64,000 nucleotides of DNA from Heterodontus francisci (lineage: Eukaryota). A model generated the notes under the pieces. That model did no database searches. It saw only the letters and a program-made list of their open reading frames with translations, and had not been told where the DNA came from. Each line of letters starts with the position of its first letter. The first letter of the stretch is position 1. A program made the position numbers and the translations under genes. The stretch is from positions 12,090,001 through 12,154,000 of the forward strand of contig NC_090415.1 in assembly GCF_036365525.1 (NCBI RefSeq), read 5' to 3'. This document shows positions 12,396 to 64,000 of this stretch, piece after piece.

Positions 12396-12425
12396 TTTGG
12401 GTTCACAGATTCAAGTCCGGCCGCT

Positions 12426-13040
<615 letters not shown>

Positions 13041-13757: not shown

Positions 13758-13773
13758 GGCTCTTAAAAGAGCC
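13758..13773 (-). terminator. Histone stem-loop (H2B copy 1)
   Basis: GGCTCTTTTAAGAGCC on the minus strand. Confidence 0.95.
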
Positions 13774-13812
13774 TTTTTGTGTTTTGGGTGTGTTTCAGTA
13801 CATTGCGGATAT

Positions 13813-18660: not shown

Positions 18661-18721
18661 CTATGGCTTCAAGGGCTGGTCAGAGACTGGGAATTCTATG
18701 ATGAGCAACTCATGTCCTAAC

Positions 18722-24276: not shown

Positions 24277-24657
24277 GTTTGTTTGTCGATTTCAAGATTT
24301 TAATCGAAAAGTATGGAACATGTCAGCGATCGGCTGAGAGAGTCATCAGTGCAGCAATGAAACGGGTTTCAGTCGAAAATGGAGTCTTTACTTCAAGTGA
24401 AACCTTTGTGACAGCAAACATTCTGATGTCAGAGACAGGAAGGATCTCGCCTGGGACTCTGGAATACCCGAATTTCAGTGGAATTGGAGAGTTTAGGACC
24501 AGAGAGAAACACAGAGAGGCAGCAGGAGCCGGGAGCTGACAGCAGGTTGTCTCCGCCCCGTCCGCTCGCTGCCTTTAAATTGCTCAGTGCCGCCACCACC
24601 AGCTTCATTTCTGACCCAGTTCTGACTGACAGAGAGACTTTGTGCAGAGTCCTGGAC

Positions 24658-25341: not shown

Positions 25342-26096
25342 AACAGCACGGGAAACTTGTAGACATCTGAACCCAAAGGCTCTTTTCAGAGCCACCCACG
25401 TCTCTCAGGAAAGAGCTGATCCCCGATCAAATGAGCCTGTCCCGCAGTCGTGCGTACATTTCACCTAGAAATGATTTGAATTAAATCCAAGTTCCCTGGT
25501 GACTCTCAACCCAGCCATTCCTCACTCTCTGCAACAAATCAGGGATGTCCGGGCCTCACTGTACCCGGGTATATGTTCGGTGAAGTCTCAGTTCATGCTC
25601 GTTTCAGGGCGACAGCCTGAAACACAGTAACACGGGCGAGATACCCCGCGTCACATCTCAAACTCCAATACGTGATTTTCTATAATTCAGCTGGGGTTCG
25701 GTTTCAGTAAACTGCTCAATCCGTCTGGGAGGAGAGGTGTGCCGAAACAGGTTGACTTGTGATCGGAAGCACTGCACTTAGGCGGGTGTATTACGAACTT
25801 TTAATTGTAACAGATCCTTATTTAAAGCGCTAATTTCTGTTATCTGTGACTATCAATGCCGAATCTCCATGTTTTATGCTGAGCTCCAATGTCGAGAACT
25901 GTTTTTTTTTGAATTGGCGGTTCGAGCAAGTGGGAGGCGGAGCGAGAGGATCAAAGACATTTCTCTGCTCTGTCTGTCACTCAGTTTCCTCCAGACCCGC
26001 CTCTGGCTCTCTGACTCTTTCTCAGTCAGGTCGGGGCAGGCTGCATAAAAAGGCAGCAGAAGCTGCTCGTTTCTCATTCAGAATTGGTTTGTCTGA

Positions 26097-26417
<321 letters not shown>

Positions 26418-26970
26418 ACAAATCGACCTTGTCCACCAAAAACAAAAGGCTCTTTTAAGAGCCACCCACAACCTCATATAGAGATAAGTGACCTTGAAAT
26501 TGCAGCGGGTATGTCTTGGGATGTGAAATTGTTGTCGCTCATCCAATGTTATGTGGACTTTATCAGATCAGTTTTGCATTCTCTTATAGTCACTTTACGT
26601 CTCGCACATTTTTTCACTGTCTTCTTCTGTTCCATGTTTAATAACCGCGTCATGAATTAAAAGATTACATTTGATAATGTCCATTGCCGACCTGAACTGC
26701 CGGTAAAGATGTCGAAAAGGATTTACTGCCGTTAGAGTAAGAAATGGCCGGAGCTTTATTCCCGCCAGAGACCGAACAGGCAATGAATCCCTATTCAAAC
26801 CGTGTTGGAAGACACAGAGGGGGATCTAGGGCGGAAAAAAATGACGCTAAAAGCACTGAGATTTTATAATCGTTCCCGCCAAATTAGGTTTTCTTTCATC
26901 TTTGCGTCGTTTACTAATTTGAAAATGGCGGGCTTTTTGAAATTGATTCAATTTCAGTTGCATTTCAACC

Positions 26971-27952
26971 GGATGTTGCCGGGACTGGAAAAAATGCAGC
27001 TCTGAGGAAAGATTGAATGGTCCGTGGTTGTTCTCTGTGGCACAGAGAATGCTGAGGAGAGATCTGATTGAATTGGATAACATTTTGAGAGGCCTGGATA
27101 GAGTGTAGGTGAAGGGCCAATTTACCTTCATACAGAGGTCACTGACTAGGGATCAAAGACTTAAAGCGTTTGGTAGAATTATTAGAGGGAAGATGAGGAC
27201 AAGGTTTTTTTTCCCTCTCATCTAGAGGATGGTGGGGGTCTGGAACTCAATGCCTGAAAGGGTAGTTGAGGCAGAAATCTTCAAATCATTCAAAAGAAGT
27301 CTGGATATGCACCTCAAGTGCATATTCTACAGGGTTACAGACCAAATGCTGGCAGGTGGGATTAGAATGGGTGGAGAGCTTTCCGGCTGGCACAGACACG
27401 ATGGTCCAAGTGGCTTCTTTCTGTGCCATAAACTTTCAATTATTTTCAGAAAAGAGAAGGCTGAGGGGGGACATGATTGAGGTATCCAAAATTATGAAGG
27501 TCATTGATAGGTTAGACAGGAGGAAACTTTTTGTTTTCCCTCAGCGAACGGATCGATCAGTCGGTCAGGGGCAGGAGGTTTAATGGAGATGTGAGGGGGG
27601 AAAAAACACTCATCATGTGGTTGGAATCTGGAACACACTGCCTGAATAGGTGGCAGAGGCAGGAACCCTCACAACATTTAAGAGGTATTTAGATGAGCAC
27701 TTGAAACGCCATAGCATACAAGAATACGGGTCAAGTGCTGGAAAATGGGATTAGAATAGTTAGATGCTTGAAGAAATACTTGCAGGTTTATAGGTAAATT
27801 GCCCCTAGTGTAGGTAAATGGGAGGAGAATGGTGGGGATGCCGGAGGGAATATGGGATTAATGTCGGATTAGTATAAATGGGTGGTTGTTGGTCGGCACA
27901 GACTCGGTGGGCCGAAGGGCCTGTTTCTGTGCTGCTTAAATCCATGACTCTA
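26971..27952 (+). mobile_element. CR1 fragments plus SINE tail (duplicate of 10015..10996)
   Basis: Identical ORF track at +16,956. Confidence 0.8.
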
Positions 27953-28446
27953 TGTTTAGTTATCGCGTCATGAATTAAACGGTTGCATTTGATAAAGTCC
28001 ATTGACGACCTGAACTGCCGGTGAAGATGGTCGATTTATTCCCGTTAGAGTAAGCAATGACCGGACCTTTATTCCCGCCTGAGACCGAACAAGGAATGAA
28101 CCCCAATTCAAACCGTATTGGAAGAAACGGAGGTGGAATCGAGGGCCGAAAGATGAAGCTCCAAGCAATGAGATTTTATAATTGTTCCCGCCGAATTAGG
28201 TTTTATTTAATCTTTGAGTAGTTTGCTAATTTGAAATTGGCGGGCTTTTTGAATTTGATGAAATTTCAGTTGCAGTTCAACCAATCAGGGAGCAGCAATT
28301 CCCACCGCCCTTATCAATCGTTTCAAATTGGATGATGGACGGGGCTTCATCCAATCACAACATTAGGACGGTCCTTCGACTGTCTTAAATAGGCAGTTCC
28401 TGAGCAGCTTCAGCATTAAACGCGACATTGTGCAAGGTCTCCGTAG

Positions 28447-28860
<414 letters not shown>

Positions 28861-29381
28861 ACTGACCCTGCCCGGAACTGAGTTCGGCATCAAATACCAC
28901 AACGGCTCTTTTAAGAGCCACCAAATCGACAAAAGAAAGAGTTGTGATCTCTTGTTCATTCCAGCACATAAACGTCTCAAGGTTTTGACCACTTATTTAC
29001 TCAAAGCCGGGAAACACAAATACTTTTGTCTGCATCCGGCAGCTGGAGATTTCATGACGTGTCAGTTGTAAGATCGAGAGTAGCGATACCAATGTGCACA
29101 GCGCATTTTAATAGACCGGCGATCGTTTTAGGACTGAACAAATGTTTGTGGTACATAAAGGGTAGAATGGTAAAAGTGCCTTTCCAATAGGGTCTGAGGG
29201 AATTAGAATGTATTTCATCTGATGAGCAACTAAATGCCAAAATCCAGTACACTTCATTCCAACACAAAACAATGATAACAGTATAATATTACAGTCTTTC
29301 AGACAGTAACCAGCCCTTTCACAGATAAAGTGGGTGGCTCTGAAAAGAGCCTTTGGGTTCACAGATTCAAGTCCGGCCGCT

Positions 29382-29891
<510 letters not shown>

Positions 29892-30687
29892 TCATTGTGC
29901 TGTACATGTAACCAATCAGAGAGCTGCTCAATTCACCAATCACAAGAAGACAGTGAGTTGAGAGCGGAAAATAAGAGCGCGAAATGGTCAGGCTCCCAAC
30001 GATATTTCACATTTGAAAAGCCCGCCAATATATTTGTAAAACAAGGGGCGGCTTCAATATAGAATATCACATTTATAGGTTATATTGTTTTACAGAAAAC
30101 ATTGCAAAAACGTGTTCATTTTTTAATTCCACATTTTGTCCCAGATTCGCTTTTGTAATCCGCCATGTATTCTGCTTTATTCTTTTTCATGATACAGTCT
30201 AACCAGCGGCTGAAAGACTCATTCACAGCATTTTGTAACCGGACACATTTCAGGTCAATCTTCGTAATTATACTGTATCACTGATTCTAGATTGATCCCT
30301 TTTCGTGGGAGACAAAAGCGGAGTATAGATTTTCAGTGTCACGGGTTAGAGACTGAGGGTGCCTAAACCAACGGGGTTTCTTAACAATGTACTTATTCAT
30401 AAAGATAGCCAAACTTTAACACGGCAACCAAGTAACTGAGAACATCTTTAAATCATGCGTTAAATCAGCTTTCATTTTCGAAATATAGCAAAGGGGCCAA
30501 AATGAATCTGCATTAACCTGACCGGATTTAAACAGAGAATACAACCGCCATCAAAAATTTGCAGAGTATTCGTATTAACATAAAAAGAAATCGATAATTA
30601 TGATGTTGTAGCTATTTCAGAGAAATTGTGGGTGGCTCTTAAAAGAGCCTTTTTTGTATATTGTGTTTTTCAGTCCATGGTGGCGAT

Positions 30688-31068
30688 TTACTTGGAGCTG
30701 GTGTACTTGGTGACCGCCTTTGTACCTTCCGACACGGCGTGTTTGGCCAGCTCCCCGGGCAGCAGCAGGCGCACGGCGGTCTGGATCTCCCGGGAGCTGA
30801 TGGTGCTGCGTTTGTTGTAATGGGCCAGGCGGGAAGCCTCACCCGCGATTCGCTCGAAAATATCATTCACAAACGAATTCATGATACTCATGGCCTTGGA
30901 GGAGATGCCGGTGTCAGGGTGAACCTGCTTCATCACTTTGTACACGTAGATGGAGTAACTTTCTCTCCTGGATCTTCTACGTTTCTTGCTGCCCTTCGTT
31001 GGCGCCTTCTTCTGAGTTTTCTTGGCGCCCTTCTTGGAAGGTGCTGCAGTTTTCTTCTCGTCAACCAT
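30688..31068 (-). CDS. H2B: Histone H2B copy 2
   Basis: Canonical IAGEASRL core; stem-loop 30634-30649. Confidence 0.98.
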
Positions 31069-32179: not shown

Positions 32180-33170
32180 GTCATGTTTGTCTTTCCCTGC
32201 AGGACATGTGAATGTGGGTTTCATTCTGTGCCTGTCAGTATGTGATATTTAACTGTGGCTTTTACTCCGTATTGGTCAATGATTTTGTGATTTAATTCAG
32301 TAATTTCAATCTTCAATAGGTGATTCTGTTTTTTCTTTCCCTGGAACATTCAGTTTCTAAGTGGGTGATTATGGGTTTTGTTCTGTACCTATGAGCTTCT
32401 GCTGAGTGAGTGTGGGTTTTGTTATGTATCTGTTAATCTCTGCTTTTGGAGTCTGGGCATTTCTCTTTATCTGTCAATTTCTGAATTGTGAATTTGGATT
32501 TTAATCTGCACCTGTCAGTTTCTGGTATGAAAGGTTGTTTGATTTTGTCTCTGTATCTGTTAGTAAGTGACATTTTTGTGTAGCTTTACACAGCACATGT
32601 TAATTGATGACACATCAGCATTGTTTTCACTCTACATGTCAGTCTCTGGTTTGGAGGCCTCACCTGTGTTCTGTACCCATCAGACGTCTTCATATAAGGA
32701 TGGGTTTTAACCTGTTCCTTTCAATCTGTTGTATGTAAGTACTGTTTATTATCTGTATCTGTAAGTTTCTGATGAATGAATGTGGTCTGTATCACGTCCC
32801 TGTCAGTGGTTCATTAAGAGATATTTTTCACTGTACCTGCCCGTTCTGATATGTGAGTGTGGGTTGTGATCTACGGCTGGCCGTTTCTGGTATGAGACAT
32901 GAGCATTGTTTTTACTCTGTGCATGTTAGCCTCAAGTGTCAGAAGCTGGGTTTAATAGTACAGCTCACTCTCTGCTGTATGATTATGGATTTTCATCTGG
33001 ACAAGTTAATTTCTGGTACGGGCATGTGAATTTTATTCTCTATGCCAATTTATGGTATGTGATTATGTGTTCTTTCTGTTCTGTCAGTTTCTGCTGAACT
33101 GTATGGTGGGTTGCTTTCAATCTGCCAAGTTCTGCGATGTGAATGTTGGTTTTACTTTGTATTTGTCATC
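32180..33170 (+). repeat. Degenerate 41-bp tandem repeat
   Basis: In-phase unit starts at 32383, 32424, 32465, 32506. Confidence 0.8.
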
Positions 33171-33174
33171 GAGA

Positions 33175-34148
33175 GATAGAGTCATAGAGTTATACAGCAC
33201 AGAAACAGGCCCTTAGACACATTGATGGCCGGCACAGGCACAATCAGTGATCTATTCTAATCCCATTTTCCAGCACTTGGCCCATAGCCTTGTATGCTAT
33301 GGCCTTTCAAATGTATATCTAAATACTTCTTAAATGTTGTGTGGGGTCCTGCCTCTACCACCCCTTTCAGGTAATGTGTTCCAGATTCCAACCACCATCT
33401 GGGTGAAAATGAAAAAAAAACAATCCTCAAATCCACTCTAAACCTCCTGCTTCTTACATTAAATCATGGCTGATCTGTTTCTGACTTGAATTCCACACTC
33501 ATATCTCCTCCCAATAATCTTTGATTCCCTTGCCTAACAAGAATCAATCAAGACCTGACTGAAAAATAATATATTCATTGACACCGCCTCCACCACCTTC
33601 TAAAGCACTGAATTCCAAAGTCTCACAAACCTCAGAGGGAAACAAAATCTCCTCATCTCGGTCCTAAAAGTGTGACCCATACTTTTAAAGCAGTGCCCCC
33701 GATTTCTGAACTCATCCACAAGAGGAAACATCCTTTCCCCATCCACCTTGTCAAGACCATTCAGGATCTTATACATTACAATCAAGTCTCCCCTCACTCT
33801 TCTAAACTCCAGTGAAAACTAACCCAGTCTGTCCAACCTTTCCTCATAAGACATCCACTCATTCCAGGTATCAATCTAATAAACCTCCTCTGAAACACCT
33901 CCAACACATTTACTTCCTTCCTTAAATATGGAGACCAAAACTGCACACAGTATTCGAGCTGTGGTCTCACCAAAGCCCCGTATAACTGAAGCATAACATC
34001 CTTAGATTAATTTTCAATTCCTGTTGGAATAAAGGATAACTTTCCAATTGCCTTTGTGATTTGCCATACCTGCATACTAACGTTTTATGACTCAAGCACA
34101 AGAACACCTGGATCCCTCTGCACCTCAGAATTCTGCAGTCATTCTCCA
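33175..34148 (-). mobile_element. Two CR1 3' fragments
   Basis: ORFs 33600.., 33794.. LVRPQLEYCVQFWSP; 3' tail at 33175. Confidence 0.85.
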
Positions 34149-34149
34149 C

Positions 34150-34335
34150 AGATACTCAGCAGGCCTGCCAGCATCTGTGGAGACAGAAACAGAGATAACC
34201 ATTCTGGTCAATGGTCTTTCATCAGAAAGGTCTGTTCTGATCGAAGGTCATTGACCTGAAATGTTAACTCACTTTCTCTCTCTACAGGTGCTGCCAGATT
34301 TGCAGATTATTTCCAGCATTTTCTGTTTTTATTTC
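34150..34335. mobile_element. Palindromic pLTR pair (paralog of 19825..20060)
   Basis: tttcatcagaaaggtctgttctgatcgaaggtcattgacctgaaatgttaac. Confidence 0.6.
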
Positions 34336-35109
34336 CACTGTACATCGTATATTCTGGCAAATGAATGTGGAATTAATCTTTAACCTTTGGTTTCTGATAT
34401 GCAAATGTGGATTTTACCTAGCATGTTGTCAGTTACTGCAATGCAAATATCTGTTTTATTCTGTAACATTTTGTTTGTGGTAATTGATTGTGGGTTTTAC
34501 TCTGCATCTGCCAGTCTCTGTAATGTGAATGTGGCTTTTGTCTGTGCATGATTTGTGAGTATGTGTTTTACTTTCCCTGTCTGTTTCTCAATGTGGATTT
34601 TGCTATGTACCTCAGTAACTTTATGTGTATATGTTGTATTCTGTTTCTATGCATGTATGGTGAGTGTAACATTTCCCCTGTATCTATCAGAATCACTCTT
34701 GTGAGGATGGTCATTATTCTGTACATGTTGGTTTATGGTAGTGCTTGATTTACACTTTTACGGTCATTCTCTGATATGCTACTATACAGTTTACTCTGCA
34801 CTTGTCAGATTCTGCTATGTGATATTATCTTTTATCTATCTGTCTGTGTCTGGTATCCTATTGCAAGTTTTACGGTATACCCATCAGCTTCTGGTATTTA
34901 AGTATGAGGTTCACATTGTATCTTTCATCTTGTTCTGTGTGAATCTGCTTCTGCCTTGAACTGACAGTTTCTACTCTGTGAGTGTACATTTGAAGGGTGC
35001 TTGTGAATTTCTGCTAAATAGATGATAGTTTTACTCTGTGCATGTCAGTCACTGCAATGGGAAGTTGGGATTCATGCTGTATCTGCCATTTGATTTATTG
35101 ATCTATTCT

Positions 35110-39141: not shown

Positions 39142-40284
39142 TTTTCTTCTCCCTGCTGCTTTCACATGCGTTCAAATCCTCTGAAGAAGGAATTTTCCTC
39201 CACACAAGATCAGGGGGCAGGTTGTTCAACCTTGCCCGTCTAAGAGCGAAGTCCAAAGTACGGAAAGTCCTCATCAGAGAACTCCTCTTTGCTGACGATG
39301 CTGCTTTAACATCTCACACTGAAGAATGCCTGCAGAGTCTCATCGACAGGTTTGCGTCTGCCTGCAATGAATTTGGCCTAACCATCAGCCTCAAGAAAAC
39401 GAACATCATGGGGCAGGATGTCAGAAATGCTCCATCCATCAATATTGGCGACCACGCTCTGGAAGTGGTTCAAGAGTTCACCTACCTAGGCTCAACTATC
39501 ACCAGTAACCTGTCTCTAGATGCAGAAATCAACAAGCACATGGGTAAGGCTTCCACTGCTATGTCCAGACTGGCCAAGAGAGTGTGGGAAAATGGCGCAC
39601 TGACACGGAACACAAAAGTCCGAGTGTATCAGGCCTGTGTCCTCAGTACCTTGCTCTACGGCAGCGAGGCCTGGACAACGTATGCCAGCCAAGAGCGACG
39701 TCTCAATTCATTCCATCTTCGCTGCCTTCGGAGAATACTTGGCATCAGGTGGCAGGACTATATCTCCAACACAGAAGTCCTTGAAGCGGCCAACACCCCC
39801 AGCTTATACACACTACTGAGTCAGCGGCGCTTGAGATGGCTTGGCCATGTGAGCCGCATGGAAGATGGCAGGATCCCCAAAGACACATTGTACAGCGAGC
39901 TCGCCACTGGTATCAGACCCACCGGCCGTCCATGTCTCCGTTATAAAGACGTCTGCAAACGCGACATGAAATCGTGTGACATTGATCACAAGTCGTGGGA
40001 GTCAGTTGCCAGCATTCGCCAGAGCTGGCGGGCAGCCATAAAGACAGGGCTAAATTGTGGCGAGTCGAAGAGACTTAGTAGTTGGCAGGAAAAAAGACAG
40101 AGGCGCAAGGGGAGAGCCAACTGTGCAACAGCCCCAACAAACAAATTTCTCTGCAGCACCTGTGGAAGAGCCTGTCACTCCAGAATTGGCCTTTATAGCC
40201 ATGCCAGGCGCTGCATCACAAACCACTGACCACCTCCAGGCGCGTATCCATTGTCTCTCGAGATAAGGAGGCCCAAAAGAAAGA
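39142..40284 (+). mobile_element. RTE-clade LINE, non-inverted 3' segment
   Basis: ORF 39222..40229: LLFADD, FTYLGS, LLYGSEAW, RLRWLGHV, C-terminal CxxC...HxxxC; aaaagaaaga tail; TSD ACTATTCAGATA. Confidence 0.95.
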
Positions 40285-43333: not shown

Positions 43334-44763
43334 CTTTTCTTTTTTCTTTTTCTTTTGGGCCTCCTTATCTCGAGAGACAATGGATACGCGCCTGGAGGTG
43401 GTCAGTGGTTTGTGAAGCAGCGCCTGGAGTGGCTATAAAGGCCAATTCTGGAGTGACAGGCTCTTCCACAGGTGCTGCAGAGAAATTTGTTTGTTGGGGC
43501 TGTTGCACAGTTGGCTCTCCCCTTGCGCCTCTGTCTTTTTTCCTGCCAACTACTAAGTCTCTTCGACTCGCCACAATTTAGCCCTGTCTTTATGGCTGCC
43601 CGCCAGCTCTGGCGAATGCTGGCAACTGACTCCCACGACTTGTGATCAATGTCACACGATTTCATGTCGCGTTTGCAGACGTCTTTATAACGGAGACATG
43701 GACGGCCGGTGGGTCTGATACCAGTGGCGAGCTCGCTGTACAATGTGTCTTTGGGGATCCTGCCATCTTCCATGCGGCTCACATGGCCAAGCCATCTCAA
43801 GCGCCGCTGACTCAGTAGTGTGTATAAGCTGGGGATGTTGGCCGCTTCAAGGACTTCTGTGTTGGAGATATAGTCCTGCCACCTGATGCCAAGTATTCTC
43901 CGAAGGCAGCGAAGATGGAATGAATTGAGACGTCGCTCTTGGCTGGCATACGGTGTCCAGGCCTCGCTGCCGTAGAGCAAGGTACTGAGGACACAGGCCT
44001 GATACACTCGGACTTTTGTGTTCCGTGTCAGTGCGCCATTTTCCCACACTCTCTTGGCCAGTCTGAACATAGCAGTGGAAGCCTTACCCATGCGCTTGTT
44101 GATTTCTGCATCTAGAGACAGGTTACTGGTGATAGTTGAGCCTAGGTAGGTGAACTCTTGAACCACTTCCAGAGCGTGGTCGCCAATATTGATGGATGGA
44201 GCATTTCTGACATCCTGCCCCATGATGTTCGTTTTCTTGAGGCTGATGGTTAGGCCAAATTCATTGCAGGCAGACGCAAACCTGTCAATGAGACTCTGCA
44301 GGCATTCTTCAGTGTGAGATGTTAAAGCAGCATCGTCAGCAAAGAGGAGTTCTCTGATGAGGACTTTCCGTACTTTGGACTTCGCTCTTAGACGGGCAAG
44401 GTTGAACAACCTGCCCCCTGATCTTGTGTGGAGGAAAATTCCTTCTTCAGAGGATTTGAACGCATGTGAAAGCAGCAGGGAGAAGAAAATCCCAAAAAGT
44501 GTGGGTGCGAGAACACAGCCCTGTTTCACACCACTCAGGATAGGAAAGGGCTCTGATGAGGAGCCACCATGTTGAATTGTGCCTTTCATATTGTCATGGA
44601 ATGAGGTGATGATACTTAGTAGCTTTGGTGGACATCCGATCTTTTCTAGTAGTCTGAAGAGACCACGTCTGCTGACGAGGTCAAAGGCTTTGGTGAGATC
44701 AATGAAAGCAATGTAGAGGGGCATCTGTTGTTCACGGCATTTCTCCTGTATCTGACGAAGGGA
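43334..44763 (-). mobile_element. RTE-clade LINE, 5'-truncated second copy
   Basis: ORF 43402..44772 includes SGVKQGCVLAP and FADD; nearly identical to the first copy; A-rich (aaaag)n tail. Confidence 0.95.
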
Positions 44764-48789: not shown

Positions 48790-50260
48790 ACAATTTATGT
48801 CTGTCAGTTTCTGATTTTGAGTGTGAGTATATCTGTACCTGTTTTATGTGAGAACCGTCTTATTCTGTATCTTTCAGATTTTGATGTGTCTGTGTGTCTG
48901 GCTTGCACTTGGTCCCCATCAGTTTAGGGTATGTGAGTGTGGATTTGACTGTTAATATTACATTCTTGGGAATATGAGTGGGGGTTCACACTTCATCTTT
49001 GAGTGTCTAGTCGGCCAACTTAAGGTTTAACCTGTGCCCTTAAATTTCTAATGTGTAGCTGTGGTTTTTATCCTGTCGCAGTCACTATCTGTTATAAGAG
49101 TAAAGGGTAAATTCTGGTTTTTGATTGTGGATTTTTCACCACATCTCTACATTGTCTCTGATGTGAATGTGATTTTTAATCTCTACATGCCAGTTTCTGA
49201 CATATGTCTCTGAGGTTTAATTTGTACATGTCATTCTCAGGTATGTGACTGCCAATTTTATTCTGAACCTCTCAGTTTCCTTTACCTGTGTGCGAGTTTT
49301 AGTCGGTATCTGTCAGTATCTGGTATATGAATCTTCTTCCTTATGTGTATGTTTTGTTTTGTATTTGTTAGTGTCTGAAGTGCCAATTGTCAGGTTTTCT
49401 TTGTACCTGTCACTCTCTGTTATGCATCACAGACTTTCCCGCTCTAACTGTAAATTTCTTGCAATTCACTATGGATTTCACTCTGTGTCTGTCAGTCTCT
49501 GGTAGTTAAGTGTGGTTTTTATACTTCATCTCCTAATTTCTGATATGTGAATGGAGATTTTAATCTGTACCTTTTGGCTTCTAGTGTGCGAGTCTGTGTT
49601 TCAATCTGTATCTACCAGTTTCTCAAATGTGAGGGTGGCATTTATTCTGTACCAGTTACTTTCTGAAATGTGTGAAGGTTTCAATCTTTCCCTGTCAGTT
49701 TCTGGGATGTGAATGTGGGTTTATTCTGGATCTTTCAATCTTTGGAACTTGAGTACATTCTTTGTCCGATACCTTTTTGCTTCTGTTAAGTGAATGAAGG
49801 ATTAGATCTGTACCTGTGCATTGATAGTAAATGAGTATCTGTTTTAGTCTGTACCTGGCAGTTTATGGCAAAGTAAGGTGGTTTATTTCTCTGCCTGCCA
49901 GATTCTGATCTGTGACTGTTGTTTTATTCTGTACCTGTTATTTTCTGTGATATGATTCTGGTTTTTGATCTGTACCTGTCAGTTGCTGTTACTTGACTGA
50001 GTTTCACTTTGTACCAGTTGGTTTCTGGTATGTGAGTGTCAGTTTTAAGTTGTACCTGTAAAGTTAAGGTATGACAGTGTGGGTTTATTCTGTATCTTTC
50101 AAACTCTGGTGTGTGATATGGGTTTTTTTTTCTCTGAATCTTGCAATTTCTGGTCTGTAAGTTTGTGTTCTTATCTGCATCTTACAGTTACTTATCGGTG
50201 TCTGTGTGCACATTTCCTTTTTCTGCAGCTATTAACGTCTGCTGCGTGAGTATGTGTAAT
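48790..50260 (+). repeat. Degenerate 41-bp tandem repeat
   Basis: Unit starts at 49565, 49606, 49647, 49686, 49726. Confidence 0.8.
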
Positions 50261-50261: not shown

Positions 50262-51450
50262 TGTGAAGACCAAGGCAAAATATTGGTATAAATTATTTGC
50301 CATTTCCCTGTTCCCCATTATCAGTTCTCCAGTTGCATCCTCTGAGGTCCCCTCACTCAGTTTAGCTACTCTCGTTCTTTTTATATACCCGGAGAAGCTC
50401 TCACTGTTTGTTTATATATTTCTTGTAAATTTACTGTCAGAATCAATGTTCCCCCTCTTTATTAACTTTTTAGTCATCCGTTGCTGATTCCTAAAATATT
50501 CCCATTCCCCTGGCCCACCACTAGTTTTTGCCTCTTTGTATGCCTTAGTTTTTGATTGGATATTCTCCTTGGCAGCATTTATTAACCACAGATGGTTCAT
50601 CCTTCTCTTTTTGACAGGGATAAATTTTTGCTCAGCATTATGAAATATCTGTTTAAATGTCTGCCACTGCTCATCCACTGACCAACCCTTAGTCCATTTT
50701 CCCAGCCCGCTTTAGACAACTCTTTCTTCATACCACAGCTATTGCCCTTGTTTAAGTTGAGGACACTGGTTTGAGACCAGAGTTGCTCGCCCTCAAACTG
50801 AAATTGATATTCTACCATGTTGTGATCACTACCCCATAGAGGATCCTTAACTACAATATCTCTTGTTAATCCTATCACATTACACATTACTAGATCCAAA
50901 ATAGCCTGTTCCCGGGTATGTTCTGCAATGTATTGATCGAAGTAACAGTCCCTGATGTACTCAACAAATTCACCTTCCATATTACCTCTGCCAATCTGAT
51001 TTGTCCAGTCAATATGTTTACCTCTATAATCTTATTTACCCTTCGCAAATTTGCACATTGCTCTGGTAGCATTCTGGAGAGTATTACCTTTCTGGTTCTG
51101 CTTTTTAATTTAGCCCCGAGCTGCTCATAGGCCCTCAGCAGAAACGGATTCCTTGTCCGACCGATGTGGACCAAGACAGCTGGATCCTTTCCCTCCCACT
51201 CCAAGTTACTCTGCAGTCAAGAAGAGATGTCGTTAATCTTGGCACCAGGTCGGCAACACAGCCTTTGGGACTCCCTGTTATTGATGCCAGAAAATGGAAT
51301 CTATTCCCCTAAATCTGCAATCCCCTATTACTAATCCCACCATTGAATAGCACTCTGAACCACACTGCTGTGGACAGTTTGCTCATCCTTCCTGCAGCCT
51401 GTGCCCTCGTCCACACAGGGAGCAAGAAGCTCATACCTATTGGATAAGGG
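50262..51450 (-). mobile_element. CR1 fragment (ORF1 esterase remnant plus endonuclease)
   Basis: VLVHIG..LGAKLKSRT; LDLVMCN..GSDHNM. Confidence 0.85.
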
Positions 51451-51664: not shown

Positions 51665-53720
51665 GAAACATAGAATCTTGGAGCAGGAGTAGGTCATTTG
51701 ACCCTGTGGGCCTGCTCCACCATTCAAATAGGGATCATGGCTGTTTGTCTAATTCAGTGCCCTGTTCCCACATTCTCCCCATATCAGTTGATCCCTTTGG
51801 CATTAAGAAATATATCTATTTCCTTCTTGAATATATCTAATAACTTGGCCTCCACTGCCTTTTGCGGTAGAGAATTCCACAGGTTCACCACCCTCTGAGT
51901 GAAGAAATTTCTCCTCAACTCAGTTCTAAATTGCATACCCCATCTCCTGAGACTGTGACCCCTGGCTCTGGACTCCCCAGCCATCGGGAACATCCTCCCT
52001 GCATCCAGCATGATTAGTCCTGTTAGAATTTATAGGTTTCTATGAGATCCCCTCTCATTCTTCTGAACTAAAGTGAATATAGGCCTACTTGACCCAATCT
52101 CTCCTCATATGTCAATCCTGCCATCCCAGAAAACAAGGCGAGAACAACCTTCCAAAGACAAAGAGACCAAAACAGCACACAATACTCCAGATGAGTCTCA
52201 CCAAGGCCCTGGATAACTGCAGTAAAACATTCTTGCTCCTGTACTCAAATCCTCTTGCAATGAAGGCCAACATACCATTCGAATTCCAAATTGCTTGCTG
52301 CACCCAAATGCTTACTTTCACCCAGATCTCGTTGCATCTCCCCCTTTCCCAATCTATCACCATTCAGATAATAATCTGATTTTCTGATTTTAAAACCAAA
52401 GTGTATAACCTCATTTTTATCCACTTTATATTTCATCAGCGACGCATTTGCCTAGTCACCTACCTTGTCCAAATCACATTGGGGGTCTCTTTGCATCCAC
52501 CTCACAATCCCACCCAAACCCCACCCCCAGCTCTGTCATCTGCAAACCTTGAAATGTTACTTTTATTTCCCTCACCCAAGTCATTCAGATATATTGTGAA
52601 TAGTTGGGGCCCAAACACAGATCCCTGCAGTACCCCACTGGTCCCTGCCTGCCACCCAGAAAAAGACCCATTTATTCCTACTGTCTGCTTCCTGTCTGTC
52701 AACTAATTCCCAATCCCTGCCAGTAGTCTGCTGGTTACATCCTCAAAAAATCCAGTGGATTTGTTAAGCATGACTTCCCTTTCGTAAAACCCATGCTGAC
52801 TTTGCCCAAACCCATTTATGCTTTCTAGGTGTTCTGCCATCACATCCTTTATAATAGACTCTAGGTGTTCTGCTATCACATCCTTTATAATAGACTCTAG
52901 GTGTTCTGCCATCACATCCTTTATAATAGACTCTAGGTGTTCTGCTATCACATCCTTTATAATAGACTCTAGGTGTTCTGCCATCACATCCTTTATAATA
53001 GACTCTCGGTGTTCTGCCATCACATCCTTTATAATAGACTCTAGGTGTTCTGCTATCACATCCTTTATAATAGACTCCAGGTGTTCTGCTATCACATCCT
53101 TTATAATAGACTCTAGGTGTTCTGCTATCGCAGCCTTTATAATCGACTCTAGGTGTTCTGCCATCACATCCTTTATAATAGACTCTAGGTGTTCTGCCAT
53201 CACATCCTTTATAATAGACTCTCGGTGTTCTGCCATCACATCCTTTATAATAGACTCTAGGTGTTCTGCTATCACATCCTTTATAATAGACTCCAGGTGT
53301 TCTGCTATCACATCCTTTATAATAGACTCTAGGTGTTCTGCTATCACATCCTTTATAATAGACTCTAGGTGTTCTGCTATCACATCCTTTATAATAGACT
53401 CTCGGTGTTCTGCCATCACATCCTTTATAATAGACTCTAGGTGTTCTGCTATCACATCCTTTATAATCGACTCTAGGTGTTCTGCCATCACATCCTTTAT
53501 AATAGACTCTAGGTGTTCTGCCATCACATCCTTTATAATAGACTCTCGGTGTTCTGCCATCACATCCTTTATAATAGACTCCAGCAGTTTCCCCACTACC
53601 AATGTCAGGCTCACTGGTCTGCAGTTCCCTGTGTTTTCTCTCCCTCCTTGTTTTAAATAGTGGGGTTACATTTTCCACCCTCCAATCTGTACGAACTGCT
53701 CCAGAGACTACAGAATTTTG
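51665..53720 (-). mobile_element. CR1 fragment containing the VNTR; paralog of 36515..41000
   Basis: SGVLQGSVFGP, FADD, NFFTQRVVNLWNSLP. Confidence 0.85.
52824..53579. repeat. 36-bp minisatellite, 21 copies
   Basis: TCTAGGTGTTCTGCYATCACATCCTTTATAATAGAC, unit starts 52824 to 53544 in steps of 36. Confidence 0.98.
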
Positions 53721-54336
53721 GAATATCCGGTACTTCATATGTATCGCAGGCATTATGTTGGCAACTCTTTGTTTCACACGTTAATGTATCAATATGTGTT
53801 TACTTGTGTTTAATTTAAAATATGGATTAACAATATTTTATTGCTGTAGGTTTTATTCAATTCTTGTTTGTGAGTTGCAGCTTGGTACCCAATTTGTAGC
53901 TCTGCAAAAGCAATTGTGAATGATGAACTTTCAATTTTAGAGTATGACCTGATATGTAATGTCAAATTCCATCTGCTTGTAGAAAATGAATTAATCCTGT
54001 ATGTTGTTGTCTGATCCTTAGTGACATGTTTGAACTGGTGTGTAATTTGTAGCTCAGTTTGTATTGTGGGCTGTGTTATTGGGATTCATTCTGTCGCTTT
54101 CAATCAGGTACATTTTGCCTGTTCTGTTTAAGATTTGGTATTTGAATTGTAGCCAAGGTGACACAGTGTATTTAAATCAGATAATGTGTGTGTTTTTGAA
54201 CTGTAATTGATATCCAACCAGTCAGTTGGAGTGAAATAGAAACGACTACTATCTCTAATGCTCTGTTTGACTATTGAATTGATAATGTGTCTCTTGGAAT
54301 CAGTGTGGGTCTGACTACTTCTTCTGTTTGTTACAG

Positions 54337-55439: not shown

Positions 55440-55620
55440 GCAGTGCTGGGGGATGGGGTGCGCATGCGCTCTTCTCCGCGTTATGACGTCATATTCGACA
55501 GGCCTATATCGCGCGTGAGCAGATCTCTGCAGCGAGAGCGGGAACAGGCGAGAGGAGCCGGGAGATAAAAGAAGCCGAAGCCAGAGACCAGAAGCAGCAG
55601 CGAGAGCCGCTCGGTTCTGT
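55440..55620. promoter_or_regulatory. CpG-rich promoter-like patch
   Basis: TGCGCATGCGC (NRF1-like) 55459-55469, TGACGTCA (CRE) 55484-55491. Confidence 0.5.
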
Positions 55621-55699
55621 TCTGTGGACCTGCTTGACCAGCAAAAGGTGAAGTGTGATGTCACAGGAGAGCTGCTCAGTGATTGGTGGGTATTTCTTT

Positions 55700-56050
55700 C
55701 TTCCATTTGAGCAGTGGGAGTGGTGAGAGTGCGAGCCAGGGGGCAGCCGGGAAGGTAAGTTTCACTAGAAAGTACTTACCTCGTGATTGGGCGGACGCGG
55801 ACACGGGGACTGCTGGGTAAGTGAACTTATATATTCAGGCAGTGGTTAAACCTGAAACACTACACGTGTAGTGTCTCCCACCCATCCTCCTCCTCTAACC
55901 AAAAAAAAAGGACTCTTGTGTGGAGGGTTCGTTGAGGTAAGTTTTTTCCTTTATTTTTTTAAATCTCTTTTGTCAATTTAGAGCGGAGGGGATGGAAGCT
56001 CGGGTAGTTGCATGCTCCTCTTACACGATGTGGGAGGTAAGGGTCACCAC
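55700..56050 (+). mobile_element. 5' UTR and ORF1 start of another CR1 family
   Basis: Shares motif blocks with 60687..60978; MEARVVACSSYTMWEVR at ~55992 resembles MAGDLRPVSCSSCSMWELR. Confidence 0.75.
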
Positions 56051-56059
56051 TTGTTTAAT

Positions 56060-58864: not shown

Positions 58865-60686
58865 AGTGTTCGGTGCTGTATCACTCTGTGACTCTAAGTA
58901 CTCCAGATGAGCCTCACCAAGGCCTTGTATAACTGCAGTAAGACATCTGTGCTCCTGTACTCAAATCCTCTTGCAACGAAGGCCAACATACCATTTTCCT
59001 TCCTAATTGCTTGCTGCACCTGAATGCTTGCTTTCAGCGACTGATGTACAAGGACACCCAGGTCTCGTTGCACCTCCCCCTTTCCCTATCTATCACTATT
59101 CAGATAATAATCTGCTTTACTGTTTTAAAACCAAAGTGGATAACTTTCACTTTTATCCTATTTATATTTCATCTGCCACACAGTTGCCTACTCACCCAAC
59201 TTGTCCAAATCACATTGGAGCCTTTTGCATCCTCCTCACAGCTCACAATCCCCCCCCCAAACCCCACCCCCAGCTCTGTGTCATCTGCAAACCTGGAAAT
59301 GTTACATTTACTTCCCTCACCCAAGTCTGTAAGATATATTGTGAATAGCTGGGGCTCAAGCACAGTTTCCTGCAGTACCCCACTGGACCCTGCCTGCCAC
59401 CCAGAAATATACCCATTTATTCCTGCTCTGTTTCCTGTCTGTCAACTAATTCCCAATCCCTGCCAGTATATTACCCCCAATCCCATGTGCTTCAATTTTG
59501 CACACTAACCTCTTATGTGGGACCTTGTCAAAAGCCTTCTGAAAATCTAAATGCACCACATCCACTAGTTCTCCATTATTGAGTCTGCTAGTTACATCCT
59601 CAAAAAATTCCAGTGGATTTGATAAGCATGACTTCCCTTTCGTAAAACTATCACATCCTTTATAATCGACTCCAGCATTTTCCCGACGACTGATGTAAGG
59701 TTCTGTCTGTAATTCCTTTTTTTTTCTCTCCCTCCTTGTTTTAAATAGTGGGGTTACATTTTCCACCCTCCAATCTGTACGAACTGCTCCAGAGTCTACA
59801 GAATTTTGGAATATCCGGTACTTCATATGTATCTCAGGCATTGTGGTGACAACTCTTTGTTTCACACGATAATGTATCAATATGTGTTTACTTGTGTTTA
59901 ATTTAAAATATGGATTAACAATGTTTTATTGCTGTAGGTTTTATTCAATTCTTGTTTGTGAGTTGTGGCTTTTTATCCAATTTGTATCTCTGCAAAAGCA
60001 ATTGTGAATGACAATCTTTCAATTTTAGAGTATGACCTGACATGTAATGTTAAATTCCATCAGTTTGTAGTAAATGAACTAATCCTGTATGTTTTTGTCT
60101 GACCCTTAGTGACATGTTTACACTGGTGTGTAATTTGTAGCTCAGTTTATATTGTGGGGTATGTTATTGGGATTCATTCTGTAGCTTTCAATCAGGTACA
60201 TTTTGTCTGTTCTGTTTAAGATTTGGTATTTGAATTGTAGCCAAGGTGACACAGTGTATTTAAATCAGATAATGTGTGTGTTTTTGGACTGTGATTCATG
60301 TATCTATCAGTCAGTTGGAGAGAAATAGAAACAAATACTATCTCGATGCTTTGTTTGACTATTGGATTGATAATGTGTCTCTTTGGGATCAGTGTGGGTC
60401 TGACTACTTCTTTTGTTTTTTACAGTGGAAATGATGACCTGACCGTGTCACTGTGCTTTGTGACTGATACTGTACCTAATATGTGTTGGAACGAGCTGGA
60501 GGTACTTTTCCATCTATTGATGAGTCATGCCTTTCCTTCTGGTTCCTTCAAGTGTTTGCCTGGCAGTAAAAAAAGGTAACTCTTACACTTGAAGAACAGG
60601 TGAGTGAGAAGACACAAAAGTGATCAATGTAATATTTTCAATAATAATCATTCTGAACAATCACAAAAGGAAAGTTCACACATAAG
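58865..60686. repeat. Duplicated segment paralogous to ~37105-37348 plus 40297-41833 and, more distantly, ~52180-54600
   Basis: Colinear CR1 fragment, unique AT-rich DNA and exon A; lacks the RTE and the VNTR. Confidence 0.9.
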
Positions 60687-60978
60687 TGAGCGAGTGAGCA
60701 GCTGGGAAGGTCAGTTTGAAAGTAAACTTAATTTCCTTTTGTTTTCGGCGGAGGCCAGGGTGCTGCTGGGTAAGTAAAACACTATATATTTGGGTGGTTT
60801 CTGAACCCGAGACACCACACTTGTAGTGTCTCCCACCCGCCCTCCTCCTCTAACCAAAAAAAAAGGACTCGGTGGGGTGTATATAAGGTAAGGCTTTTTC
60901 TATTTCTCTGGTTTTATCGTGATTGGTAAAAACTTTTCGTTCCTTTTTCATTTAACTAAGTTAAGCTTAAGATTAAAA

Positions 60979-61926
60979 ATGGCAGGAGATCTCAGACCCG
61001 TGTCATGCTCCTCTTGCTCAATGTGGGAGCTCAGGGACATGACTGATGTCCCTGACCCCTTCACGTGCAGGAAGTGTGTCCAACTGCAGCTCTTGTTAGA
61101 CCGCATGATGGCTCTCGAGCTGCGGATGGACTCACTTTGGAGCATGCGCGATGCTGAGGAGGTCGTGGATAGCACGTTTAGTGAATTGGTCACACCGCAG
61201 ATTAGGATTGCTGAGGGAGAAAGGGAATGGGTGACCAAAAGGCAGAGAAAGAGCAGGAAGGCAGCGCAGGAGTCCCCTGCGGTCATCTCCCTCCAAAACA
61301 AGTATACCGTTTTGGATACTGTTGAGGGAGATGGCTCACCAGGGGAAGGCAGCAGTAGCCAGGTCCATGGCACCGTGGCTGGCTCTGCTGTTCAGAAGGG
61401 CGGGAAAAAGAGTGGAAGGGCTATAGTCGTAGGGGATTCGATTGTAAGGGGAGTAGATAGGCGGTTCTGTGGTCGAAAACGAGGCTCCCGAATGTTATGT
61501 TGCCTCTCAGGTGCACGGGTCAGGGATGTCTCAGATCGGCTGCAGAACATTCTAAAGGGGGAGGGTGAACAGCCAGTTGTCATTGTGCACATAGGCACCA
61601 ATGATATAGGTAAAAAACGGGATGAGGTCCTACAAGCAGAGTTTAGGGAGTTAGGAGCCAAGTTAAAAAGCAGGACCTCAGAGGTAGTAATCTCAGGATT
61701 GCTACCAGTGCCACGTGATAGTCAGAGTAAAAATGAAAGAATAGTCAGGATGAACGCGTGGCTTGAGAGATGGTGCAGGAAGGAGGGGTTCAGATTTTTG
61801 GGACATTGGGACCGGTTCTGGGGGAGGTGGGACTATTACAAATTGGACGGTCTACACCTGGGCCGGACTGGAACCAATGTCCTTGGGGGTGCTTTTGCTA
61901 ACGCTGTTGGGGAGGGTTTAAACTAA
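60979..61926 (+). CDS. CR1 ORF1p: zinc finger/leucine zipper plus SGNH esterase, 315 aa
   Basis: CxxC..CxxC, coiled coil, VGDSIV, VHIGTNDI, DGLHL. Confidence 0.92.
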   Translation: MAGDLRPVSCSSCSMWELRDMTDVPDPFTCRKCVQLQLLLDRMMALELRMDSLWSMRDAEEVVDSTFSELVTPQIRIAEGEREWVTKRQRKSRKAAQESPAVISLQNKYTVLDTVEGDGSPGEGSSSQVHGTVAGSAVQKGGKKSGRAIVVGDSIVRGVDRRFCGRKRGSRMLCCLSGARVRDVSDRLQNILKGEGEQPVVIVHIGTNDIGKKRDEVLQAEFRELGAKLKSRTSEVVISGLLPVPRDSQSKNERIVRMNAWLERWCRKEGFRFLGHWDRFWGRWDYYKLDGLHLGRTGTNVLGGAFANAVGEGLN

Positions 61927-64000
61927 TGTGGCAGGGGGATGGGAACCAATTGAGGTCAGTTGACAGTAAGGAGGTAGTAACAAAAGCCTGTAAGGAACTA
62001 GATAATGAAATCAGTGTGACTAAGGGGAAGAACAGGCAGGGAGCAGATGATGAATATAAAGGGACTGGTGGTCTGAGGTGCATTTGTTTTAATGCAAGAA
62101 GTGTAATAGGTAAGGCAGATGAACTTAGGGCTTGGATTAGTACCTGGGAGTATGATGTTATTGCTATTACTGAGACTTGGTTAAGGGAAGGGCATGATTG
62201 GCAACTAAATAACCCAGGATACCGATGCTTCAGGCGGGATAGAGAGGGAGGTAAAAGGGGTGGAGGAGTTGCATTACTGGTCAAAGAGGATATCACAGCT
62301 GTGCTGAAGGAGGGCACTATGGAGGACTCGAGCAGTGAGGCAATATGGACAGAACTCAGAAATAGGAAGGGTGCGGTAACAATGTTGGGGCTGTACTACA
62401 GGCCTCCCATAAGCGAGCGTGAGATAGAGGTACAAATATGTAAACAGATTATGGAAAGATGTAGGAGCAACAGGGTGGTGGTGATAGGAGATTTTAATTT
62501 TCCCAACATTGACTGGGATTCGCTTAGTGTTAGAGGTCCAGATGGAGCAGAATTTGTAAGGAGCATCCAGGAGGGTTTTCTAGAGCAGTATGTAAATAGT
62601 CCAACTCGGGAAGGGGCCATACTGGACCTGGTGTTGGGGAATGAGCCCGGCCAGGTTGTTGAAGTTTCAGTAGGGGACTACTTTGGGAATAGTGATCACA
62701 ATTCCGTAAGCTTTAAAATACTCATGGACAAAGACGAGAGTGATCCTAAAGGAAGAGTGCTAAATTGGGGGAAGGCCAACTATACCAAAATTCGGCAGGA
62801 GCTGGGGAATGTAGATTGGGAGCAGCTGTTTGAAGGTAAATCCACATGTGATATGTAGGAGGCTTTTAAAGAGAGGTTGATTAGCGTGCAGGAGAGACAT
62901 GTTCCTGTGAAAATGAGGGATAGAAATGGCAAGATTAGGGAACCATGGATGACAGGTGAAATTGTGAGACTAGCTCAGAGGAAAAAGGAAGCATACATAA
63001 GGTCTAGGCGGCTGATGAAAGACGAAGCTTTGAAAGAATATCGGGAATGTAGGACCAATCTGAAACGAGGAATTAAGAGGGCTAAAAGGGGTCATGAAAT
63101 ATCTTTAGCATACAGGGTTAAGGAAAATCCCAAAGCCTTTTATTCATATATAAGGAGAAAGAGGGTAACTAGAGAAAGGATTGGCCCACTAAAGGACAAA
63201 GGAGGAATGTTATGCTTGGACTCAGAGAAAATGGGTGAGATTCTAAACGAGTACTTTGCATCGGTATTCACCGAGGAGAGGGACATGACGGATGTTGAGG
63301 TTAGGAACAGATGTTTGATTACTCGAGGTCAAGTCGGCATAAGGAGGGAGGAAGTGTTGGGTATTCTAAAGGGCATTAAGGTGGACAAGTCCCCAGGTCC
63401 GGATGGGATCTATCCCAGGTTACTGAGGGAAGCGAGAGAGGAAATAGCTGGGGCCTTAACAGATATCTTTGCAGCATCCTTAAACACGGGTGAGGTCCCG
63501 GAGGACTGGAGAATTGCTAATGTTGTCCCCTTATTTAAGAAGGGTAGCAGGGATAATCCAGGTAATTATAGACCGGTGAGCCTGACGTCAGTGGTAGGGA
63601 AGCTGCTGGAGAAGATACTGAGGGATAGGATCTATTCCCATTTGGAAGAAAATGGGCTTATCAGTGATAGGCAACATGGTTTTGTGCAGGGGAGGTCATG
63701 TCTTACCAACTTAATAGAATTCTTTGAGGAAGTGACAAAGTTGATTGATGAGGGAAGGGCTGTCGATGTCATATACATGGACTTCAGTAAGGCGTTTGAT
63801 AAGGTTCCCCATGGCAGGCTGATGGAGAAAGTGAAGACGCATGGGGTCCAAGGTGTACTAGCTAGATGGATAAAGAACTGGCTGGGCAACAGGAGACAGA
63901 GAGTAGCAGTAGAAGGGAGTTTCTCAAAATGGAGACGTGTGACCAGTGGTGTTCCACAGGGATCCGTGCTGGGACCACTGTTGTTTGTGATATACATTAA
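61926..64000 (+). pseudogene. CR1 ORF2 (APE plus RT) with one premature stop
   Basis: NARS, ITETWL, GGGVA, YYRPP, GDFN, SDHN; TAG at 62856-62858 where the homolog has W; RT motifs continue downstream to VPQGSVLGP. Confidence 0.9.

What the first reader, a model, noticed from the sequence alone, without database searches (positions are those of the whole stretch)
60789..60870. Covarying multi-hairpin, possibly pseudoknotted RNA motif shared by two divergent CR1 5' UTRs
Seen at 60789-60870 and 55834-55913: hairpin 1 TTGGGT/ACCCGA versus TTCAGG/CCTGAA (compensatory) with GGTT in the loop; hairpin 2 GAGACACCAC-ACTT-GTAGTGTCTC versus GAAACACTAC-ACGT-GTAGTGTCTC; then a TCCT/AGGA stem around TAACC-A-run, whose AACC could pair with the GGTT loop. 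Flanks and ORF1 starts are much more diverged. Known: other non-LTR clades (R2, some RTE and L1Tc) carry 5' ribozymes. I cannot match this to a known class; candidate novel ribozyme, IRES-like or packaging element. Only two copies, so support is thin.
Basis: partly seen in the sequence, partly recalled or inferred. Interest (0 to 1): 0.7.

Follow-up and report, generated by a model that had tools for sequence, protein, structure and literature searches.

The report
Conserved tether module in shark LINEs
Several distantly related families of a shark-type jumping gene share a nearly unchanged 65-letter module just behind their repeated front-end units, and it is likely a transcription-control element rather than the self-cutting RNA proposed, because its pairings do not co-vary and most copies begin well upstream of it.

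Summary
The shared sequence is real. The covarying pseudoknotted ribozyme is not supported. A 65-nt block occurs in at least 6,265 CR1 copies (control 1). It is 91-97% identical between lineages whose monomers are 63-83% alike and whose ORF1 starts are as low as 62-66% alike, and it appears in contigs of five other coded organisms. The 'compensatory' pair is double CpG decay in a dead, locally amplified copy (A-T in 0 of 82 dispersed copies). GGTT lies in the loop in only 26 of 82. Only hairpin 2, a palindrome, folds reliably, and its family-level stem changes are unrepaired. Copies start about 30 nt behind a TATA box in upstream 161-nt monomers (62 of 84); only 5 of 90 start in the block, so it is not a 5'-processing ribozyme. 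The architecture matches mouse L1 monomers plus tether. Lineage D, closest to A in coding sequence, has a CRE/CCAAT module instead. Best reading: promoter-proximal cis-element (0.5); RNA hairpin plus C-rich protein site (0.3). Function is untested. The scan noted this module before in other genomes (e1-9856610, e1-8622030).

The parts
60685..60782 (+). Copy A: 3' part of the last 5' UTR monomer (copy is 5'-truncated at about 60685); ends with a GG|GTAAGT donor-like site (GT at 60770)
   Evidence: (161-nt period in L169)
60783..60790 (+). TATA-like box that ends every monomer; element 5' ends cluster 30-32 nt after its first T in upstream monomers
60789..60811 (+).
60805..60869 (+). Conserved 65-nt block (tether core) of copy A
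60809..60832 (+). Hairpin 2 / 24-bp palindrome (perfect in C, E and A2-type copies; central CACGTG only in some families)
60817..60817 (+). Minor 5'-end peak inside the block (14 of 60 flank-type ends, 12 of 14 preceded by G): candidate weak capped start site
60833..60851 (+). Near-invariant C-rich tract (CACCC/GC-box-like on DNA; poly(C)-binding-site-like on RNA; both labels recalled)
60852..60869 (+). AACC, 9-A run, GGACT; partly lost in other organisms
60885..60893 (+). Conserved AAG|GTAAG splice-donor consensus closing the block (GT at 60888); three contigs of run X1 leave the element exactly after 60887
   Evidence: (table 7)
60888..60978 (+). Lineage-specific, T-rich donor-to-ATG segment with a reverse CCAAT box at 60921
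60979..61926 (+). ORF1, 315 aa, SGNH/GDSL esterase (PF13472)
61902..64000 (+). ORF2 (APE + RT), one in-frame stop at 62856, runs off the window
55650..55686 (+). Copy B: decayed D-type CRE/CCAAT module upstream of the B monomer
   Evidence: 9 differences to the D motif
55828..55835 (+). Copy B TATA-like box
55850..55914 (+). Conserved block of copy B (hairpin 2 at 55854-55877, C-rich tract 55878-55896)
55934..56052 (+). Copy B donor (GT at 55937), ATG at 55992, ORF1 broken off after about 20 codons; dead fragment amplified on contig C45

Best explanation
The block is the conserved core of the segment between a tandem array of TATA-bearing 5' UTR monomers and ORF1 in several shark-type CR1 lineages, and it likely acts as a promoter-proximal transcription element (sequence-specific factor sites, a predicted weak start site and a following splice donor) rather than as a catalytic RNA. 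Shown: the monomer array, the clustering of element 5' ends 30-32 nt behind a monomer TATA, the block's conservation, its lack of covariation, and its replacement in lineage D. Inferred: that monomers are Pol II promoters, that the C-rich tract binds Sp/KLF-type factors, that the last TATA fires weakly at 60817, and that the donor supports transcription through U1. Lineages also likely exchange these 5' modules by recombination, as mouse L1 does.
For: 5' ends: 62 of 84 mapped A-type copies fall at monomer positions 28-43, with 31 at 30-32; in the unbiased subset 27 of 44, p 1e-16. A G precedes 13 of 20 ends at positions 30-31 (p 0.001, window chosen after looking), as expected of capped RNA (recalled). 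Minor peak at block position 35: 14 of 60, 12 of 14 preceded by G. No covariation. The four in-genome family-level stem changes of hairpin 2 (G29A, C31A, T34C, A43C) all break a pair. The repairing variant is no commoner than a non-pairing one (6 against 7). None of the 74 element-derived G46 variants among 77 matches shows the compensating partner (read by eye). The unpaired-looking C-rich tract is as invariant as the stem. A TATA-like or AT-rich box keeps the same 21-22 nt spacing in loose ends from organisms A, C, D and E although the spacer differs (one organism-B end lacks it). Lineage D is closest to A in coding DNA (75-80%, against 67-70% for A to B or C). It carries a TGACGTCA + GATTGG module in this slot in 24 of 30 loci and a loose block match in 1 of 30. 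Analogy: chicken CR1-B 5' UTR drives a reporter and holds E-box/USF/Sp1 sites (PMC2734521, passages); mouse L1 tethers are conserved across monomer families and modulate promoter output (PMC9022269, passages).
Against: No promoter assay or binding data. The central E-box is destroyed in A-type families (52 of 90 sampled copies were tagged A, one of them a mis-tagged C copy). In organisms C and E the hairpin top is shortened while the basal 5 bp can still pair, which suits an RNA hairpin better than a spaced dimer site. Over all monomer ends the G excess is not significant (20 of 59 against 17.3 expected, p 0.26). The G before position 35 can also arise by ACAC slippage with truncation at G29. 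Starts inside the block are rare (about 2% of copies by my scaling), so the block is at most a weak initiator. Variation is so low that absence of covariation has limited power. The D module also contains a 7-bp inverted repeat (seen in the sequence). No precisely spliced genomic copy was found for the donor in A (0 of 3 matches).
Confidence: 0.5

Rival explanations
1. The block works on the RNA: one hairpin followed by a single-stranded C-rich/A-rich tract that would bind host proteins (poly(C)- or poly(A)-binding proteins) or ORF1p, for stability, translation or RNP assembly.
For: It lies inside the full-length transcript, at least 165 nt behind the main start. Hairpin 2 is stable (block z -3.3 to -5.9 in 7 of 7 copies). 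Family-level changes concentrate in the 4-nt loop (positions 37, 39, 40). Shortened hairpins in organisms C and E keep the basal stem. B-type changes improve hairpin 1 on one side at two pairs.
Against: No two-sided change in any active family; four unrepaired stem changes, including a C-C mismatch in an expanded young subfamily. Hairpin 2 is a palindrome, so it folds regardless of selection. Lineage D has intact ORF1s without the block. One organism-E family lacks the CCTCC-TAACC-A part.
Confidence: 0.3
2. The block has no special function; it is kept alike by repeated 5' UTR exchange (template switching) among co-active lineages.
For: Module swaps are visible: E and C are 96% alike in coding DNA but differ in the donor-to-ATG segment; 4 of 30 D loci carry B-type monomers; window copy B carries a D-type module; A shares its 5' UTR with B and C although D is closer in coding DNA. 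Such exchange is reported for mouse L1 (PMC3600994, abstract).
Against: The block is also kept in contigs of five coded organisms, with flanks below the 80% laying threshold in organisms C, D and E. Within-genome exchange alone cannot hold it constant between species.
Confidence: 0.1
3. The functional structure is on the antisense strand: two adjacent hairpins in an antisense RNA.
For: The antisense strand folds better as RNA in 7 of 7 copies by energy and in 4 of 7 by z-score (block z -4.2 to -6.0); the U-run would pair with the purine tract over 11-13 bp. Two of four family-level stem changes are G-U wobbles on that strand.
Against: The 3' hairpin alone has z only -1.4 to -2.7 and rests on low-complexity U/G pairing. 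It is not predicted with DNA parameters, so a cDNA role is unlikely. The A-run and AGGA vary in other organisms. No stranded RNA data.
Confidence: 0.05
4. A new self-cleaving ribozyme that processes the element's 5' end.
For: Known for other non-LTR elements, e.g. twister variants at the 5' end of all 113 full-length Perere-3 copies (PMC8501958, passages). A small peak of 5' ends exists at 60817.
Against: 83 of 90 copies extend upstream of the block and its TATA/spacer; only 5 start inside the block. Efficient cleavage here would discard the promoter array. The pseudoknot is not conserved. No Rfam match over the block. No HDV, hammerhead, twister or pistol core over the block with rough recalled descriptors. 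The ends at 60817 carry an extra G, which points to a cap rather than a 5'-OH (recalled logic).
Confidence: 0.04

Closest known systems
Mouse L1 5' UTR: tandem monomers plus tether (Tf, A, Gf; PMC9022269, passages read; PMC3600994, abstract)
   Same: Tandem monomer array, 5' ends clustered at set monomer positions, a conserved non-repeated segment before ORF1 shared by families with different monomers, frequent exchange of 5' UTRs.
   Different: CR1 clade with esterase ORF1, not L1. Monomers end in a TATA-like box and hold donor sites. The conserved core is 65 nt at 91-97% identity (Tf and A tethers 76.6%). Promoter activity is untested here.
Vertebrate canonical CR1 with esterase ORF1 (PMC13343379, passages and section 15); chicken CR1-B 5' UTR promoter (PMC2734521, passages)
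   Same: ORF1 SGNH esterase, APE-RT ORF2; E-box and Sp1-like sites; direct repeats reported in turtle and pufferfish CR1 5' UTRs.
   Different: The passages read describe no palindrome/C-rich/A-run block shared across lineages. PMC13343379 mentions 5' repeat arrays only for ORF1-less elements, whereas these have ORF1.
5' ribozymes of non-LTR elements: twister variants of Perere-3 (PMC8501958, abstract and passages); HDV-like ribozymes of R2/RTE/L1Tc (recalled)
   Same: Structured-looking motif in a LINE 5' region.
   Different: Those sit at the element's 5' terminus next to the target-site duplication. This block lies 165 nt or more inside, lacks their cores and shows no covariation.

Membership tests
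Canonical CR1 LINE | Esterase (SGNH) ORF1 | tested here: met
   PF13472, E 2e-14; named relatives are shark, ray and chimaera proteins
Canonical CR1 LINE | ORF2 with APE and RT domains | tested here: met
   PF03372, PF00078
Canonical CR1 LINE | Placement in the CR1 clade by an RT tree; 3' stem-loop and microsatellite tail | not tested
   No RT tree with reference elements was built and 3' ends were not examined; clade assigned from ORF1 type and relatives
L1-type monomer + tether 5' UTR (works like) | Tandem monomers of variable number | tested here: met
   161-nt period in L169; less than one to six or more monomers in 90 copies
L1-type monomer + tether 5' UTR (works like) | 5' ends clustered at a set monomer position | tested here: met
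   62 of 84 at positions 28-43
L1-type monomer + tether 5' UTR (works like) | Conserved tether shared by families with different monomers | tested here: met
   block 91-97% against monomers 63-83%; absent in lineage D
L1-type monomer + tether 5' UTR (works like) | Promoter activity rising with monomer number | not testable with these tools
   needs reporter assay or CAGE
5'-processing self-cleaving ribozyme of a non-LTR element | Element 5' ends coincide with the motif's cleavage site | tested here: not met
   5 of 90 copies start inside the block; main ends lie about 130 nt upstream of the last TATA or whole monomers further
5'-processing self-cleaving ribozyme of a non-LTR element | Covarying helices and pseudoknot | tested here: not met
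   power limited by low variation
Known ribozyme classes (HDV-like, twister, hammerhead, pistol and other Rfam families) | Match to family model or catalytic core | tested here: not met
   Rfam: no match over the block in the window or six other copies; rough recalled descriptors negative over the block
Known ribozyme classes (HDV-like, twister, hammerhead, pistol and other Rfam families) | Self-cleavage in vitro | not testable with these tools
   bench assay
IRES or packaging signal | Cap-independent translation or RNP enrichment | not testable with these tools
   no positive evidence; main transcripts look capped (partly)

The most novel reading that the evidence does not exclude
A CR1 leader element under stronger constraint than the coding sequence, kept across deeply split lineages and several species, that is a dedicated RNA signal (hairpin plus C-rich/A-rich tail, closed by a U1 site) which licenses full-length RNA for ORF1 translation or RNP assembly: a TAR-like 5' cis-element in a LINE clade believed to need only its 3' end.
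Probability: 0.15. Interest if true: 0.7.

Novelty: new variant of a known kind. Interest (0 to 1): 0.36.

Why it matters
CR1-group elements cover 22-34% of elasmobranch genomes (PMC13343379, passage), yet their 5' regulation is little described in the papers I could search. Mouse L1 tethers are conserved for an unknown reason (PMC9022269). Here an independent LINE clade shows the same monomer-plus-tether layout with the conserved part narrowed to 65 nt, a natural replacement (lineage D) and natural variants, so the tether question is cheap to test. It is not evidence for a new ribozyme.

Tried and rejected
Rfam at E up to 10 on window 50-64 kb and on six copies: only weak chance matches, none over the block. 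ORF1-alignment scans: metagenomes gave 4 loci at 26-33% identity; two (L091, L092) were read by eye without seeing the block, two were not read; viral contigs gave none. Motif scans of viral (12) and prokaryotic (31) contigs were taken as chance matches from their short length and titles and were not opened. No RNA holder was listed as such; all eight runs laid are contigs whose RNA status is a guess, so expression, strand and starts were not shown. Searches had mis-set gaps and are uninformative (78 was redone). The first counter had an offset error and was redone. Two variants seen in other organisms were not found in this genome. A teleost and a ray ORF1 query returned only A and B copies, so no deeper-diverged block was found in this genome. 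In-element splicing from the 60888 donor to the A ATG region: 0 precise copies among 3 matches. The ORF1 tree was the quick tree and left the base unresolved; lineage relations rest on BLAST identities. U12 branch-point, telomerase-template, tRNA-like and histone stem-loop readings were considered from recall and dropped because their defining partners are missing. No paper on the extra-G cap signature was found, so that point is recalled. No covariance model was built.

Full report
Context. The window is G000:C45:12090001-12154000 of a 6.0-Gb genome. Copy A (60685-64000) is a CR1-type LINE: ORF1 at 60979-61926 is an SGNH esterase, and ORF2 has APE and RT domains with one stop at 62856. Named ORF1 relatives are from sharks, rays, a chimaera and a bony fish, so I call the genome shark-like by inference. 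Copy B (about 55450-56050) is a fragment that breaks off after about 20 codons; 38 of its 40 best matches lie on contig C45, and 26 of the 29 matched copies of that set share its break. Positions below count from the first T of the last TATA (1 = 60783).

The observation. The letters are as described. A pattern for the C-rich/TAACC part has 6,265 matches against 1 for the control. I took 90 of the first 100 listed matches (contig C1; 10 were not fetched) as a sample not selected for hairpins 1 or 2. They fall into three ORF1 lineages (A, B, C) and a chimeric E. Between single representative copies the block is 91-97% identical, the upstream 100 nt 63-83%, the donor-to-ATG segment 20-57% between lineages (87% within C), and the first 300 nt of ORF1 62-66% for A against B, C1 and C2. 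Over long coding stretches A is 67-70% identical to B and C and 75-80% to lineage D. The block was covered in all 8 of the 22 listed runs that I laid, from five coded organisms; in organisms C, D and E cover starts at about 60790-60805 and falls after about 60865. The conservation is real.

The proposed structure. Eight of 90 copies were out of register (truncated or with indels) and left out. In the other 82, the 'compensatory' pair is G-C 78, G-T 3, A-C 1, A-T 0; A-T is confined to the C45 set (28 of 29), and both changes are CpG transitions in a dead copy. GGTT is in the loop in 26 of 82. On 14 representative sequences the only two-sided change comes from window copy B, and 123-136 of 500 shuffles reach it; the pseudoknot is 71% or 52% paired by register; the RNAalifold covariation term is -0.17. 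Hairpins 1 and 2 overlap by 2-3 nt. In nine copies folded with context, hairpin 2 is probable in eight, hairpin 1 reaches 0.4-0.6 in two, and TCCT/AGGA stays at or below 0.43. Hairpin 2 is a 24-bp palindrome. Its four family-level stem changes all break pairs. In the youngest family the repairing base occurs in 6 copies and a non-pairing one in 7, while a C-C mismatch subfamily is expanded. Of 77 matches with a change at position 46, 74 are element copies and none has the matching partner (read by eye). In favour of an RNA hairpin: changes concentrate in the loop, and contigs of organisms C and E show a shortened top with the basal 5 bp still able to pair. In other contigs AGGA is missing, and one family lacks the whole third part. 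Variation is low, so the covariation test has limited power.

Where copies begin. The 5' UTR is an array of monomers (161 nt in L169), each ending in a donor-like site and a TATA-like box. Of 84 non-duplicate A-type copies with a mapped end (17 more ran off the locus), 62 begin at monomer positions 28-43 and 31 at 30-32; in the unbiased subset 27 of 44 (p 1e-16). In the 90-copy sample 5 begin inside the block and 2 at the TATA/spacer. Genome-wide, 51 and 131 copies have lost the sequence just before or at the start of hairpin 2. Of the first 100 of the 131, 35 are internal deletions, 5 duplicates and 60 true ends; these peak mildly at position 35 (14 of 60; 12 of 14 preceded by G). At monomer positions 30-31 a G precedes 13 of 20 ends, but over all monomer ends only 20 of 59 (expected 17.3). 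I read the G as a reverse-transcribed cap; that is recalled (searches found no paper), the windows were chosen after looking, and slippage is an alternative at position 35. This pattern is the opposite of Perere-3, where the twister cleavage site abuts the target-site duplication (PMC8501958, abstract and passages).

Modularity. Lineage D has intact ORF1s and monomers but a CRE/CCAAT module where A, B and C have the block (24 of 30 loci; loose block match in 1; B-type monomers in 4). E and C share 96% coding identity but not the segment before the ATG. So 5' modules are likely exchanged, as reported for mouse L1 (PMC3600994, abstract), and the block is not needed by every CR1 lineage. A donor consensus closes the block in all 14 aligned sequences. 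Three contigs of run X1 leave the element exactly there, but that run's RNA status is a guess, and no precisely spliced genomic copy was found.

Mechanism. Shown: array, end clustering, conservation, no covariation, replacement in D. Inferred: monomers are Pol II promoters and the block is a promoter-proximal element (0.5). Rivals: sense-RNA hairpin with protein-binding tail (0.3), homogenisation without function (0.1), antisense structure (0.05; better energy in 7 of 7), ribozyme (0.04). Factor names (Sp/KLF, poly(C)-binding proteins, U1 stimulation) are recalled, not tested.

Relation to what is known. It works like the mouse L1 monomer-plus-tether 5' UTR (PMC9022269, passages). Chicken CR1-B has a promoter-active 5' UTR with E-box and Sp1 sites, and repeats are reported for turtle and pufferfish CR1 (PMC2734521, passages). 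A 2026 survey mentions 5' arrays only for ORF1-less elements (PMC13343379, passages and section 15). Searches gave no description of this block (listings only, apart from the papers named); Repbase, the 1990s papers and supplements were not seen. Earlier scan notes describe the same kind of module and monomers in other genomes and in this one. They are unchecked AI notes and not support; my first reading was recorded before them, and the analyses up to preceded them.

Verdict. A real, strongly conserved tether core in shark-type CR1 elements; not a covarying pseudoknot and very probably not a ribozyme; new variant of a known kind; interest 0.36.

Noticed in passing
window 55754-55780; D monomers in L138-L153: The monomer's GGTAAG donor is followed by its own complement ACTTACC, forming a hairpin that would hide the donor; ACTTACC also resembles the U1 snRNA 5' end (recalled). 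Seen in B and D monomers.
   Followed up: no
window about 4300-14100 and 21300-31000: Tandem segmental duplication with spacing 16,956 nt and 100% identity in the listed pieces; possibly recent or an assembly artefact.
   Followed up: no
window 39142-40282 and 43349-44489: 1,141-nt inverted repeat, 99% complementary, 3,066 nt apart.
   Followed up: no
window 52680-53735: 36-bp tandem array that lies in a decayed RT region and keeps several frames open.
   Followed up: no
window 55450-56050 and contig C45 8.7-14.0 Mb: The truncated B fragment is amplified at least 38 times on C45. Upstream lie GCGCATGCGC (55460) and TGACGTCA (55484), which may belong to a promoter in the amplified unit.
   Followed up: partly
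block positions 34 and 43 (window 60816, 60825): T>G at 34 recurs in 6 of 82 copies from different families; A>C at 43 is the same change on the other strand of the palindrome. Possibly a context-dependent mutation hot spot.
   Followed up: partly
L085, L230, L327: Family E is chimeric: C-type coding DNA (96%) with a different donor-to-ATG segment and ORF1 start.
   Followed up: partly
protein P0008: An ORF1 relative labelled Pseudomonas aeruginosa is 59% identical to this LINE ORF1 and groups with the B/C clade: likely fish DNA contamination in that record.
   Followed up: no
window 17900-20900, 32200-34800, 49200-50100: Degenerate 41-bp repeat family in three patches (family D3).
   Followed up: no
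window 51016-51447 and 50262-51031 (minus strand): Old, decayed CR1 with ORF1 33% identical to copy A; its 5' UTR is replaced by other repeats.
   Followed up: partly
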